Assembly: GCA_963827235.1 (NCBI GenBank)
Contig: CAWHAE010000009.1
Coordinates: 640,001 to 704,000 of the forward strand
Direction of reading: 5' to 3'
DNA: 64,000 nt
Source of the DNA: an uncultured bacterium
GTDB lineage: Bacteria; Chloroflexota; UBA5177; JANWHV01
The translations under genes were made by a program, and so were the position numbers. Below the pieces are notes generated by a model that was given only the letters and a program-made list of their open reading frames with translations, was not told the origin of the DNA and searched no databases. Shown here piece after piece: positions 4,150 to 6,756 of this stretch. Each line of letters begins with the position of its first letter. Position 1 is the first letter of the stretch.

Positions 4150-4821
4150 TCAAGGAAGCACCTCGATCCTTGCCGCTCGCGCGCCCGGCGAGAAGACCGT
4201 CACGTTCTCGAGAATGTCTTCGAGGTGCGCGACAACCGCCATTCTGTCGACTCCCGGCGGCGCGTAGACGACGTAGAGGACCTCGGTCGTCTGGCTGCCG
4301 ATCTTCGTCCGGCCATCCGGGCCATGGAGCACGGCGGAGAGTATGCCGTTGCCGTCTCTCACGTACATGTCGCCGGCCGTGAGTGCCTGCGTCCGGCCGT
4401 TCATCATGGCGAGCTCCTCGTCGCCGGCGGCCACGCTTGCCAGCAGCGGCGGGAGAAGCAGGGCACGGTCGTGGCCGGCCGTCAGCATCTGATTCTTGAG
4501 CTCGGCCATGAACATGGCCTCGACCAGGCAATTGGCACGCGGGATGTCTTTACCGCCCGAGATGATGGATTCCAGCTGCAACAGCACATGATAGGTCTTG
4601 CGGAAGCCCTTGTAGTAGGACGCGTAGGATCGAAGCGGCTCCGTCTGCAGCAGATCAGATCGAGTCATCCCCTCGAAGTGCTCGCGCAGCCATGTCTCCA
4701 GCGCCTTCTTCCGGGCGTTCAGACCCGGGTCCTCGCCGGCATTAGCCGCGTTTTCCAGGGCCAGGATACCGATGTATGCGTCGGGATACGCGTCGCGAAA
4801 TGAGGCGCTGAGGTTCAACAT
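4150..4821 (-). CDS. Stand-alone B3/B4 (PheRS beta editing-like) domain protein
   Basis: YYKGFRKTYHVLLQLES, AGHD, GDMYVRDGNGILS, GPDGRTKI pattern. Confidence 0.75.
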   Translation of the reverse strand: MLNLSASFRDAYPDAYIGILALENAANAGEDPGLNARKKALETWLREHFEGMTRSDLLQTEPLRSYASYYKGFRKTYHVLLQLESIISGGKDIPRANCLVEAMFMAELKNQMLTAGHDRALLLPPLLASVAAGDEELAMMNGRTQALTAGDMYVRDGNGILSAVLHGPDGRTKIGSQTTEVLYVVYAPPGVDRMAVVAHLEDILENVTVFSPGARAARIEVLP

Positions 4822-4879: not shown

Positions 4880-5827
4880 TCAATGGTAGAACGGCGCGGT
4901 GGCTTGCGCCACCGTCCGCACAGCCTGCATGATCGCGGCGAATTGCCGCAAATCCACGGTCTGGGCCGCGTCGCTCCAGGCGTGGTCCGGCACCGGATGC
5001 ACCTCGATGATCAGGCCGGCGGCACCGGCGGCGATGGCCGCTAGCGACATCGGCTGAATCAGCGATCGCCTGCCCGTGGCATGACTGGGGTCGACGATCA
5101 CCGGGAGGTGCGTGAGCTCGCGCAGAAGCGGCACGGCGCTGAGGTCCAGCTGATTACGCAGGGTGGAGTCGATGCCGCGCACGCCGCGCTCGCAGAGCAC
5201 CACCTGATCATTGCCTTCAGCAAGAATGTACTCTGCCGCGAGCAGCCACTCCTCGATCGTCGCGGCGAGACCCCGTTTCAGGAGAACCGGCTTATGTTGG
5301 CGGCCGACGGCGCGCAGCAACGGGTAGTTCTGCATGTTGCGGCTGCCGATCTGCAGCATGTCGGCATACCGGGCAACCAGATCGACGTCACCCGGTTCGA
5401 TCACCTCGGTCACCACGGGCAGGCCGGTGCGGGCGCGGGCCCGCGCCAGCAGCATCAGCCCCTCCTCACCAAGTCCACTGAACGCATAGGGAGAGGTACG
5501 AGGCTTGAAAGCGCCGCCGCGCAGGATCTCGCCGCCGGCGGCGCGTACGGCTTCGGCGGTAGAGAGCAACTGCTCCTCGCTTTCCACGGAGCATGGGCCG
5601 CCGATCACGACCGGACGGCCGCTGCCTATCCGTACGTTGCCGACCTGCACCACCGAGGCTGCCTGGCCCGGCAGGCGCTGCGCAAGACGATACGGCCTCG
5701 CTGGCGCGGGCTCCGCGTTCGTACTGGTTGGGGCTTCTAGCGCCGGCCCGGACGGCTGCGTGGCAGTTTCCTGCCGGTGCCGTTCGCCTGTGGCCGCGGC
5801 ATTGTCGACGAGATTGGTTGATTGCAT
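4880..5827 (-). CDS. aroF: 3-deoxy-7-phosphoheptulonate (DAHP) synthase, type I-beta
   Basis: [43 protein letters not shown] motifs; ATG at 5827 preceded by AGGAG. Confidence 0.95.
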
Positions 5828-5872
5828 GGCTACGGGCTCCTCTCCTGCTGACGCATTGGTCGATAACCCAAC

Positions 5873-5899
5873 AAAAAAGCAGAGGCCGAAACCTCTGCT
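5873..5899 (-). terminator. Intrinsic terminator (attenuator) in the aroF leader
   Basis: Minus strand AGCAGAGG-TTTCGG-CCTCTGCT followed by a T-run, about 45 nt before the aroF ATG. Confidence 0.85.
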
Positions 5900-5959
5900 C
5901 AATTCCCGGTATGACTGCTGCCGCTCGTCGGCGGCGCGGGCGCTTCGCCCACCTCACGG

Positions 5960-6061
5960 TCATACCGGGCTGCTAAACCACCAGTAGTAAGAGGACACGA
6001 CGACAGCCACGACCGGGGAGGTCGTGCGGCAGACTGCCTGCTGGTCGTCGCGCATGCGCAT
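5960..6061 (-). CDS. Aromatic-amino-acid leader peptide MRMRDDQQAVCRTTSPVVAVVVSSYYWWFSSPV
   Basis: Manual translation; consecutive TAC TAC TGG TGG TTT codons four codons before the stop; lies between a promoter and a terminator. Confidence 0.85.
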   Translation of the reverse strand: MRMRDDQQAVCRTTSPVVAVVVSSYYWWFSSPV

Positions 6062-6107
6062 GAAGTGGGCGCTTTCTCGTGCACGAGGCCGATCCGGCCT
6101 CAAGCCG

Positions 6108-6137
6108 ATACTAGCACGGCGCGATCATCTGTGTCAA
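6108..6137 (-). promoter_or_regulatory. Sigma70 promoter of the aroF leader
   Basis: TTGACA-N18-TAGTAT with extended -10 TG. Confidence 0.75.
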
Positions 6138-6141
6138 AGGT

Positions 6142-6756
6142 CTACTTCCAGATAGTCGCGATTGAGATGGCGAAGATAGCGACCGGCCGGTAGTTCTTGT
6201 CGACCTTCACCACCGTCGCGTACTTGACGGCACCCATCGCCTGGGGATCGCCGATCACTTCGGACTTGTCCGCGCATCCGTAGTTGATGCGCTGGTTGGC
6301 TACTGCGCCGGTTGCTCCGGTCAGGAAGCCGCAGATGGTGCCGTTGCCGAGCTTGAGCATCCAGGCCTGTGAATTGTGCGCCGGTCCGTGCGTGGGCAGC
6401 GGCGCCGGCAAGACGACCACGAAGCCCGTGGGATGGGTCGGATCGGCATCACAAATCACCGTGCTGGCGTGCGGCACCAGGCTGAAGCACGGGTCGTAGA
6501 TCTCGTTGCCGACCATGCAGCGCCAGGCATCGGACCGATCGAGAGCCATCGATTCTCCCATGTCGCACGCTCCCCGGCGCGTCGCTCCGGTCGTACCGGC
6601 GGGATGAAACACCACGACCTTGGTTGCCGGCACGGCGCCGAGGGCTCCACCGGCGGCGTGGGCCGGCGTCCGGGGCACCAGGGAAAGGCCGCTGCACGTC
6701 ACAACCAGGGCGAGCAACATACCGGTGAGCTTCCACGGCCATCGAGCAGACACCAT
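6142..6756 (-). CDS. Secreted Cys-rich hypothetical protein
   Basis: Signal peptide ending AHA; DAWRCMVGNEIYDPCF and several Cys; RBS AGGAGAG. Confidence 0.7.
   Translation of the reverse strand: MVSARWPWKLTGMLLALVVTCSGLSLVPRTPAHAAGGALGAVPATKVVVFHPAGTTGATRRGACDMGESMALDRSDAWRCMVGNEIYDPCFSLVPHASTVICDADPTHPTGFVVVLPAPLPTHGPAHNSQAWMLKLGNGTICGFLTGATGAVANQRINYGCADKSEVIGDPQAMGAVKYATVVKVDKNYRPVAIFAISIATIWK

What the first reader, a model, noticed from the sequence alone, without database searches (positions are those of the whole stretch)
5860..6137. Tyr-Tyr-Trp-Trp-Phe leader peptide attenuator upstream of DAHP synthase
Seen in the sequence (minus strand, in order): promoter TTGACA-N18-TAGTAT; a 33-codon ORF absent from the ORF track ending ...SSYYWWFSSPV*; an 11-bp inverted repeat (CCCGGTATGAC over the leader stop pairing with GTCATACCGGG) enclosing two small hairpins (GGGCG/CGCCC, GCCGC/GCGGC); a strong intrinsic terminator; then aroF. 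Established: ribosome-mediated attenuators such as trpL and pheL use runs of codons for the pathway end product, and DAHP synthase is the entry step for all three aromatic amino acids. Inference: one leader reads Tyr, Trp and Phe tRNA charging together to control shikimate-pathway entry. I could not identify a classical 2:3 antiterminator helix, so the switch geometry may be non-canonical.
Basis: partly seen in the sequence, partly recalled or inferred. Interest (0 to 1): 0.9.

Follow-up and report, generated by a model that had tools for sequence, protein, structure and literature searches.

The report
Aromatic leader attenuator of DAHP synthase
A short upstream reading frame with a Tyr-Tyr-Trp-Trp-Phe codon run, a long hairpin and a terminator most likely lets this bacterium switch on the first enzyme of aromatic amino-acid synthesis when those amino acids run short; this kind of control is known, but here the hairpin only touches the terminator and does not overlap it.

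Summary

It is not chance. This is the only run of 5 or more aromatic codons in the window. The genus ortholog keeps YYWWF with synonymous Tyr codons. A covariance model of run+P2+T matches 48 of 151 genomes of the phylum, probably Chloroflexota. 19 of 21 base pairs show compensatory changes.

It is a ribosome-mediated attenuator reading Tyr, Trp and Phe codons together. The idea has a published precedent, the aroR leader (Phe-Tyr-Phe) before aroF in Corynebacterium glutamicum, so the kind is known.

The geometry is unusual. No antiterminator overlaps T. P2 forms only when the ribosome stalls on the aromatic run, and it ends 4 nt before T here. Across 56 relatives it ends between a 4-nt gap and a 6-nt overlap, centred on 0. 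How a folded P2 defeats T is inferred, not shown.

No RNA data exist for this organism. Verdict: real, and a new variant of a known kind.

The parts
6108..6137 (-). sigma-70-like promoter TTGACA-N18-TAGTAT
   Evidence: 10 of 12 matches, the only site in 5700-6300. TTGACA is also present upstream of the L002 leader.
6084..6102 (-). 8-bp hairpin at the predicted 5' end of the transcript
   Evidence: minimum-free-energy fold. Its role is unknown; RNA stabilisation is a guess.
5960..6061 (-). leader ORF of 33 codons plus a TGA stop
   Evidence: The ortholog L002 has a 34-codon leader ending in the same YYWWFSSPV.
5995..6053 (-). P1, a branched hairpin inside the leader ORF upstream of the aromatic run
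   Evidence: fold. Small hairpins at this position were seen by eye in relatives. A role as a transcription pause hairpin is inferred only.
5975..5989 (-). regulatory codons TAC TAC TGG TGG TTT (Tyr Tyr Trp Trp Phe)
5905..5969 (-). P2: 11-bp outer stem (5969-5959 with 5915-5905) enclosing two inner hairpins. The leader stop codon 5962-5960 lies in its 5' arm.
   Evidence: Covariation: 7 of 12 pairs in alignment A2 and 11 of 12 in A4.
5871..5900 (-). intrinsic terminator T: 10-bp stem, loop TTCG, T-tract
   Evidence: Covariation: 4 of 9 pairs, 8 of 9, 9 of 10.
5901..5904 (-). 4-nt linker AATT between P2 and T
4880..5827 (-). aroF-type (I-beta) 3-deoxy-7-phosphoheptulonate synthase, without the N-terminal ferredoxin-like domain. 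A Shine-Dalgarno-like AGGAGAGGAG lies at 5846-5837.
   Evidence: The NF006421 match covers profile positions 66-333 of 338.

Best explanation
This is a ribosome-mediated transcription attenuator of a DAHP synthase gene.

- Start: transcription begins just after the promoter at 6137-6108, and a ribosome translates the 33-codon leader.
- Amino acids plentiful: when Tyr-, Trp- and Phe-tRNA are charged, the ribosome runs into the 5' arm of hairpin P2 and sits on the UGA inside it. P2 stays open while RNA polymerase makes terminator T, 45 nt before the aroF start, and transcription ends there.
- Amino acids short: when any of the three tRNAs is scarce, the ribosome stalls on 5989-5975. P2 folds directly in front of it, and polymerase reads through T into aroF.

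Shown here:
- all the parts exist;
- they are conserved and covary;
- P2 formation depends on where the ribosome sits.

Inferred:
- the sign of the response;
- the step from a folded P2 to failure of T.

P2 does not overlap T here; there is a 4-nt gap. My preferred reading is steric. The base of T has to sit in the polymerase's RNA exit channel. It is tied by 0-4 nt to a rigid helix that is itself docked on the stalled ribosome.
For: - Anatomy.
- Downstream gene is DAHP synthase.
- Ortholog L002 keeps the run, P2 (with a C-G to U-A compensatory change read by eye), the inner hairpins and T.
- An automatic detector finds an aromatic leader plus terminator in 35 of 74 upstream regions of the phylum. 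One call is probably spurious and two true cases were missed.
- Model R1 matches 48 of 151 genomes of the phylum and exactly one place in this genome.
- Of 10 genes downstream of R1 matches, 8 are DAHP synthase and 2 are prephenate dehydrogenase.
- Covariation: 96.3% of cells paired and 11 of 21 pairs compensatory on A2. 95.9% paired and 19 of 21 compensatory on A4. No shuffle of 500 reaches these values, and slid controls pair at 29-56%.
- Frame-specific aromatic enrichment with both synonymous codons in use.
- The same P2 nucleotides are read in three different frames in different relatives (…PPA stop, …CGM…, …SRH…). The RNA is therefore what is conserved, not the peptide tail.
- Ribosome-masked folding: P2 stays intact with the A site on Tyr1, Tyr2 or Trp1, keeps 7 bp at Trp2, and is lost at Phe and at the stop codon under a generous footprint.
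- P2 always fills the space between the run and T. Maximal P2 and maximal T overlap by -4 to +6 nt in 56 distinct relatives, and 32 of 56 lie within ±1.
- A working precedent exists in C. glutamicum aroR: passages in PMC11802643.
Against: - No antiterminator overlaps T. With the ribosome masked at every codon, the T pairs keep a probability of 0.95 or more in the window and in L009.
- The best duplex partners of the T 5' arm are weak and differ from locus to locus.
- RNA thermodynamics alone therefore predicts termination in both states.
- The only published readout I saw for the precedent says C. glutamicum aroR responded to Phe limitation and not to Tyr (passage in PMC11802643). Sensing of all three amino acids is not assured.
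- With a generous footprint, a stall on the last (Phe) codon would open part of P2.
- No obvious Shine-Dalgarno sequence lies at normal spacing before the leader ATG (read by eye).
- There is no expression data.
Confidence: 0.75

Rival explanations
1. This is a classical attenuator whose antiterminator I failed to see. Some upstream segment would pair with the T 5' arm when the ribosome stalls, for example CCTCT at 5995-5991 with AGAGG in T, or a pseudoknot with a P2 loop.
For: CCUCU:AGAGG is a possible 5-bp pairing. In 14 of 56 relatives maximal P2 and maximal T share 1-6 nt. L032, L059 and L061 overlap by 4-7 nt. L004 has an 8-bp pairing, seen by eye, between the leader end and the T 5' arm.
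Against: CCUCU lies just 5' of the Tyr codons and would be inside a stalled ribosome. Complementarity between the aromatic run and the T 5' arm is no better than for shuffled sequence: mean z -0.07, only 5 of 32 with z below -1, cross-locus permutation p 0.06. The window and L002 have gaps of 4 and 3 nt with no possible extension. T pair probability stays at 0.95 or more at all ribosome positions.
Confidence: 0.1
2. Folded P2 acts on the polymerase itself or binds a protein, as the put RNA of phage HK022 does (recalled, not checked here). The elongation complex becomes termination-resistant, and the ribosome only decides whether P2 folds.
For: The P2 arm sequences are unusually conserved, with a consensus near CGGCATGAC / GTCATGCCG, across relatives whose enzymes are 50-65% identical. 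No RNA competitor for T exists.
Against: 11 of 12 P2 pairs change on both sides somewhere in the family, so sequence identity is not essential. A factor-like action would not need P2 to end within a few nucleotides of T, yet it always does. Rfam gives no match.
Confidence: 0.1
3. It is not a regulator. The short ORF is a chance frame or a small protein or sRNA gene with its own constitutive terminator, and aroF is transcribed from elsewhere.
For: There are no expression data. T is predicted to form in all states. The 5' hairpin and terminator resemble those of a stable small RNA.
Against: The aromatic run is frame-specific and conserved across the phylum, always before aromatic-pathway genes. 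No promoter-like site lies between T and aroF in 5700-6300. Independent aromatic leaders stand before the same enzyme in other phyla.
Confidence: 0.04

Closest known systems
aroR leader before aroF (cg1129) in Corynebacterium glutamicum (Neshat et al. 2014, known to me only through passages in PMC11802643 and PMC4046766)
   Same: A leader peptide with mixed aromatic codons (Phe-Tyr-Phe) precedes a DAHP synthase gene. Transcription rises when ribosomes stall on those codons.
   Different: It comes from a different phylum. It has three regulatory codons and no Trp. It is reported to respond to Phe but not Tyr limitation. I did not see its RNA structure or sequence, so homology and geometry were not compared.
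trpL and pheL attenuators of Escherichia coli (textbook; Rfam families for amino-acid leaders)
   Same: A short ORF with a run of codons for the pathway product. The ribosome's position selects the RNA fold. An intrinsic terminator precedes the structural gene.
   Different: Those use one amino acid each and have a 2:3 antiterminator that shares nucleotides with the terminator. Here three amino acids are read and the stall-specific hairpin stops 4 nt short of the terminator. No Rfam family matched at E up to 10.
Aromatic leaders before I-beta DAHP synthase in other phyla, found here in records titled Geobacter, Smithella, Ignavibacteriaceae, Spirochaetia, Acidobacteriota and Pirellula
   Same: F/Y/W-rich short ORF, terminator, same enzyme family downstream.
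   Different: In 8 of 12 of these, the fold made before the T 3' arm exists already pairs 9-13 of the 9-14 nucleotides of the T 5' arm, which is a canonical antiterminator. In the P2 family 0-8 are paired. Only L092, whose title names an Acidobacteriota class, matches model R1 (78.9 bits).
Bacillus subtilis trp leader and E. coli pyrBI attenuator (both recalled, not checked here)
   Same: As I recall, antiterminator and terminator overlap by only 4 nt in the B. subtilis trp leader. In pyrBI a ribosome close behind the polymerase blocks the terminator hairpin physically. Both show that small overlaps or steric effects can suffice.
   Different: The trp leader is read by the TRAP protein, not by a ribosome. 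In pyrBI the leader ORF runs through the terminator, whereas here it stops 60 nt before it.

Membership tests
Leader-peptide (ribosome-mediated) transcription attenuators | Short ORF with a run of codons for the pathway's end product(s) | tested here: met
   YYWWF at 5989-5975 in a 33-codon ORF. It is unique in the window and frame-specific in 56 relatives.
Leader-peptide (ribosome-mediated) transcription attenuators | Intrinsic terminator between the leader ORF and the regulated gene | tested here: met
   Stem 5900-5877 plus T-tract. Covariation in 8 of 9 pairs.
Leader-peptide (ribosome-mediated) transcription attenuators | Antiterminator helix that shares nucleotides with the terminator | tested here: not met
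   There is a 4-nt gap between P2 and T with no possible extension. The T pairs keep a probability of 0.95 or more at every masked ribosome position. The feature is met in 14 of 56 relatives, by 1-6 nt.
Leader-peptide (ribosome-mediated) transcription attenuators | An RNA fold that depends on whether the ribosome stalls at the regulatory codons or reaches the end of the ORF | tested here: met
   P2 is intact with the A site on Tyr1, Tyr2 or Trp1 and is lost at the stop codon. The stop codon lies in the 5' arm of P2.
Leader-peptide (ribosome-mediated) transcription attenuators | Read-through rises when the cognate aminoacyl-tRNA is short | not testable with these tools
   No RNA run holds the sequence.
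Rfam amino-acid leader families (Trp, Phe, His, Leu, Thr leaders) | Match to the family covariance model | tested here: not met
   cmscan of 5600-6400 at E up to 10 returned only three weak matches to unrelated families. The best was sbrA at 26.6 bits against a gathering score of 45, lying on the terminator.
C. glutamicum aroR-type attenuator | Sequence or structural homology to aroR | not tested
   I held no aroR sequence. Only the functional resemblance is documented (passages in PMC11802643 and PMC4046766).

The most novel reading that the evidence does not exclude
A phylum-wide class of attenuators works without any shared nucleotides between antiterminator and terminator. The stall-specific hairpin P2 ends flush against the terminator and begins at the leading edge of the stalled ribosome. 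Folding of P2 therefore ties the ribosome to the foot of the terminator, and the terminator stem cannot be completed inside the polymerase's RNA exit channel. This would be coupling at a distance through an RNA helix. Alternatively, P2 modifies the polymerase directly.
Probability: 0.3. Interest if true: 0.8.

Novelty: new variant of a known kind. Interest (0 to 1): 0.5.

Why it matters
- DAHP synthase sets the flow into all three aromatic amino acids. A single leader that counts Tyr, Trp and Phe codons is a compact way to integrate three signals at the pathway's entry.
- Here the leader controls a copy of the enzyme that lacks the usual allosteric N-terminal domain. The two other copies in this genome do not carry this leader motif, and both appear to have an N-terminal extension (read by eye).
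- The element defines a conserved RNA family in a phylum with little studied gene regulation. It matches 48 of 151 genomes sampled and has no Rfam match.
- Its abutting-helix geometry offers a clean test of how close an upstream structure, or a stalled ribosome, must be to defeat an intrinsic terminator.
- Mixed aromatic leaders before the same enzyme in at least six other phyla suggest the solution arose repeatedly.

Tried and rejected
- Rfam scan at a permissive threshold: nothing relevant.
- Duplex search for partners of the T 5' arm in 13 loci: partners are weak and inconsistent.
- Ribosome-masked partition-function folding: T is never displaced.
- Aromatic codons pairing with the T 5' arm. 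This looked attractive by eye in two loci but is not significant: mean z -0.07, permutation p 0.06.
- Extended terminator stems reaching into the P2 3' arm. The possible pairs lie beyond the T-tract and are not conserved in L002 (by eye).
- A second ORF starting at the ATG that overlaps the leader stop (ATGA; the 165-codon frame 5466..5963) and running through T. It is not conserved: by eye, the same frame in L048 stops after 6 codons.
- Other attenuators in this genome for comparison of geometry. The strict terminator scan gave 35 sites and no other leader with a codon run. The other aromatic runs I inspected are not short ORFs followed by a terminator.
- Leaders before the two other DAHP synthase copies: none seen.
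- Expression data: no RNA holder is listed for window:5400-6400.
- Literature searches. Searches returned the C. glutamicum aroR precedent. Searches returned attenuation papers, but the passages I read had no such leader. Searches returned nothing. No search gave a description of this leader for Chloroflexi, Geobacter or other phyla. Subscription papers such as Neshat 2014 and Lopatovskaya 2010, and all supplements, were not visible and may bear on novelty.
- Pairing of the T 3' arm with the aroF Shine-Dalgarno region: considered by eye, but it is weaker than T itself.

Full report
**Observation**

- The promoter scan finds one site in 5700-6300: TTGACA-N18-TAGTAT at 6137..6108. The terminator scan finds one site: stem 5900..5877, 10 pairs, loop TTCG, then a T-tract. 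Shuffled expectations are 0.1 and 0.4.
- The leader runs from ATG 6061 to TGA 5962-5960, 33 codons. The ORF list shows it only as a 47-codon TTG-start form.
- The five aromatic codons are at 5989-5975.
- The 11-bp stem, which I call P2, pairs 5969-5959 with 5915-5905. It holds the stop codon in its 5' arm and encloses two small hairpins.
- The 248-nt leader folds at -121.6 kcal/mol, z = -4.78, and no shuffle of 200 folds as well.
- The gene that follows (5827-4880) is a 3-deoxy-7-phosphoheptulonate synthase of the I-beta type. It lacks the N-terminal ferredoxin-like domain: the NF006421 match covers profile positions 66-333 of 338.

**Is it chance?**

- The run is the only stretch of 5 or more F/W/Y in the six frames of the window.
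- The whole 8-Mb genome gives ten such entries, three of which are one poly-T tract.
- I inspected five of the others. Four lie in open frames of 87 to 550 codons or more. The fifth is an 18-codon open frame that I did not screen for a following terminator; my strict terminator list shows none near it.
- A strict scan finds only 35 terminator-like hairpins in the genome, so a strong terminator directly after this run is itself unusual.

**Relatives**

- The genome has three DAHP synthase copies.
- The closest ortholog (L002, same genus, 78% identity) has a 34-codon leader ending in the same YYWWFSSPV. Both Tyr codons are changed synonymously. It has the same P2 (one C-G to U-A double change, read by eye), the same inner hairpins and the same terminator stem with a different loop.
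- The enzyme is found in 354 of 401 sampled genomes of the phylum. I examined 74 upstream regions: 30, and 44 of the 60 pieces fetched. The other 16 pieces gave no anchor.
- An automatic detector found an aromatic leader followed by a terminator in 35 of the 74. One call (L005) is probably spurious. Two true cases (L002, L004) were missed because their terminator stems are bulged.
- The closest leader relatives end in …SFYYWFSPPA.
- Named records place the family in Chloroflexota: titles include Thermomicrobiales, Chloroflexia and Limnocylindrales. The phylum of the window is therefore inferred, not given.

**A conserved RNA family**

- A 27-sequence alignment (A2) has P2 and T in fixed columns. 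96.3% of cells are paired and 11 of 21 pairs change on both sides. No shuffle of 500 reaches these values, and slid controls pair at 35-56%.
- I built covariance model R1 from A2.
- R1 matches one place in this genome at E 2e-21. The only other match is the terminator palindrome on the other strand, at E 0.37.
- R1 matches 48 of 151 genomes of the phylum.
- Of ten genes downstream of R1 matches, eight are DAHP synthase, six of them with the ferredoxin-like domain. Two are prephenate dehydrogenase.
- On the model-fitted alignment of 65 distinct rows, 95.9% of cells pair and 19 of 21 pairs are compensatory, against 29-54% paired in slid controls. That alignment leans towards the model.

**Evidence for translation**

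- In 56 distinct members, the 11 codons before P2 hold a mean of 4.36 aromatic residues in the leader frame and 0.73 in the other frames.
- Codon counts are TAC 60, TAT 51, TTT 65, TTC 28 and TGG 40.
- All three aromatic residues occur in 23 of 56, Phe plus Tyr in 25, Trp plus Tyr in 7, and Phe plus Trp in 1.
- The conserved P2 5' arm is read in three different frames in different members: …PPA-stop, …CGM…, …SRH…. The RNA is conserved, not the peptide tail, and the stop codon need not lie in the arm. What all members share is that any ribosome passing the run must invade P2.

**The switch**

- The best partners of the T 5' arm are weak and differ between loci.
- With 30 nt masked around each A-site codon in turn, the T pairs keep a probability of 0.95 or more in the window and 0.98 or more in L009.
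- The same run shows what does change. P2 is intact with the A site on Tyr1, Tyr2 or Trp1, is reduced to 7 bp at Trp2, and is lost at Phe and at the stop codon.
- P2 is very stable: -26 to -54 kcal/mol for the segment in 32 loci. It starts 0-10 nt after the run and fills the space up to T.
- Extending both helices as far as canonical pairs allow, P2 and T overlap by -4 to +6 nt in 56 distinct members. The counts are -4: 7, -3: 2, -2: 6, -1: 13, 0: 14, and +1 to +6: 14. The window is at -4.
- This narrow distribution centred on zero is the strongest sign that the relative placement matters.
- For contrast, take twelve aromatic leaders from other phyla. In eight of them the fold made before the T 3' arm exists already pairs 9-13 of the 9-14 nucleotides of the T 5' arm. 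Those are ordinary antiterminators.

**Mechanism**

Shown:
- the parts exist;
- they are conserved;
- P2 formation depends on ribosome position.

Inferred from the logic of the pathway and from the C. glutamicum precedent: a stall, and therefore a folded P2, means read-through.

The physical link from P2 to T is open. I see three readings.
1. Steric (preferred). The foot of the terminator stem must sit in the polymerase's RNA exit channel. It is joined by 0-4 nt to a rigid helix whose other strand enters the stalled ribosome a few nucleotides away. The stem therefore cannot be completed.
2. Competition for the junction nucleotides. This is real in the 14 of 56 members that overlap, but not here.
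3. A direct effect of folded P2 on the polymerase or on a protein.

An insertion series between P2 and T would separate these readings.

One further hint is partly recalled knowledge. In many members the leader ends …Pro-Ala-UGA-C. As I recall, such contexts terminate slowly, which would keep the ribosome on P2 long enough.

**What is known**

- Passages in PMC11802643 and PMC4046766 describe aroR, a leader with Phe-Tyr-Phe before aroF in Corynebacterium glutamicum. They cite Neshat et al. 2014, which I could not read. Transcription rises under Phe limitation; Tyr had no effect.
- Seven full-text searches found no description of such a leader in Chloroflexi or in the other phyla where I see it.
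- Passages read in PMC4833913, PMC1173090 and PMC1262725 do not cover it.
- Subscription papers and supplements were not visible.

**Limits**

- No RNA run holds the sequence, so termination and regulation are untested.
- Two rows of the family alignments come from genomes flagged unpublished: L017 from G018 and L189 from G055. They count among the 35 of 74, 32, 56 and 65 rows cited above, and L189 is one of the eight DAHP synthase hits. I did not recompute the counts without them.

Noticed in passing
window 4150-4821 (-): A 223-codon ORF starts 58 nt after the aroF stop on the same strand. It has no family match above threshold, only a weak B3_4 domain hit (E 0.0041, 17.2 bits against a cutoff of 29.3). 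This domain is found in the phenylalanyl-tRNA synthetase beta subunit. It may be co-transcribed with aroF.
   Followed up: partly
G000 C8:272661 and C10:224011; window 4880-5827: The two other DAHP synthase copies in the genome have no match to leader model R1. Both show an N-terminal extension resembling the regulatory ferredoxin-like domain (read by eye). The leader-controlled copy in the window lacks that domain. This suggests a division of labour between allosteric and transcriptional control.
   Followed up: partly
window 5954-5956 (-): A second in-frame TGA lies two codons after the leader stop (TGA CCG TGA). By alignment with relatives whose arm reads …ACGTGACGG, it may be the ancestral stop.
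   Followed up: no
L096, L103, L111, L114, L124, L125, L138, L143, L153, L156, L164, L168: F/Y/W-rich short ORFs followed by terminators stand before I-beta DAHP synthase in records titled Geobacter, Smithella, Syntrophaceae, Ignavibacteriaceae, Spirochaetia, Acidobacteriota and Pirellula. Most have ordinary overlapping antiterminators. The detector fired on 26 of 80 named loci in all; the Clostridiaceae call (L100) looks dubious.
   Followed up: partly
L188 and L190: The same leader-P2-T motif precedes prephenate dehydrogenase (tyrA-type) genes in two genomes of the phylum. The motif therefore serves more than one aromatic-pathway gene.
   Followed up: partly
L092: A record titled Candidatus Polarisedimenticolia (Acidobacteriota) carries a leader of the Chloroflexota type, …PYWFTPPA with P2 and the GCAGAGG terminator, scoring 78.9 bits with R1. 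This could be horizontal transfer or a binning error.
   Followed up: no
G000 whole genome: Only 35 hairpins meet strict intrinsic-terminator criteria in 8 Mb (63.8% G+C in the window). Canonical terminators appear rare in this organism.
   Followed up: no
G000 C3:28786-28815 and C17:130-159: Two identical copies of a strong terminator (13-bp stem). Upstream of the C3 copy, the only one I read, lie a TTGACA…TAATAT promoter-like site and about 170 nt of highly structured RNA with no convincing ORF. It may be a small RNA gene.
   Followed up: partly
family alignment A4, just 5' of P2: The last aromatic codon is nearly always TTT followed by AG (motif TTTAG), about 5 nt before P2. The reason is unknown.
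   Followed up: no
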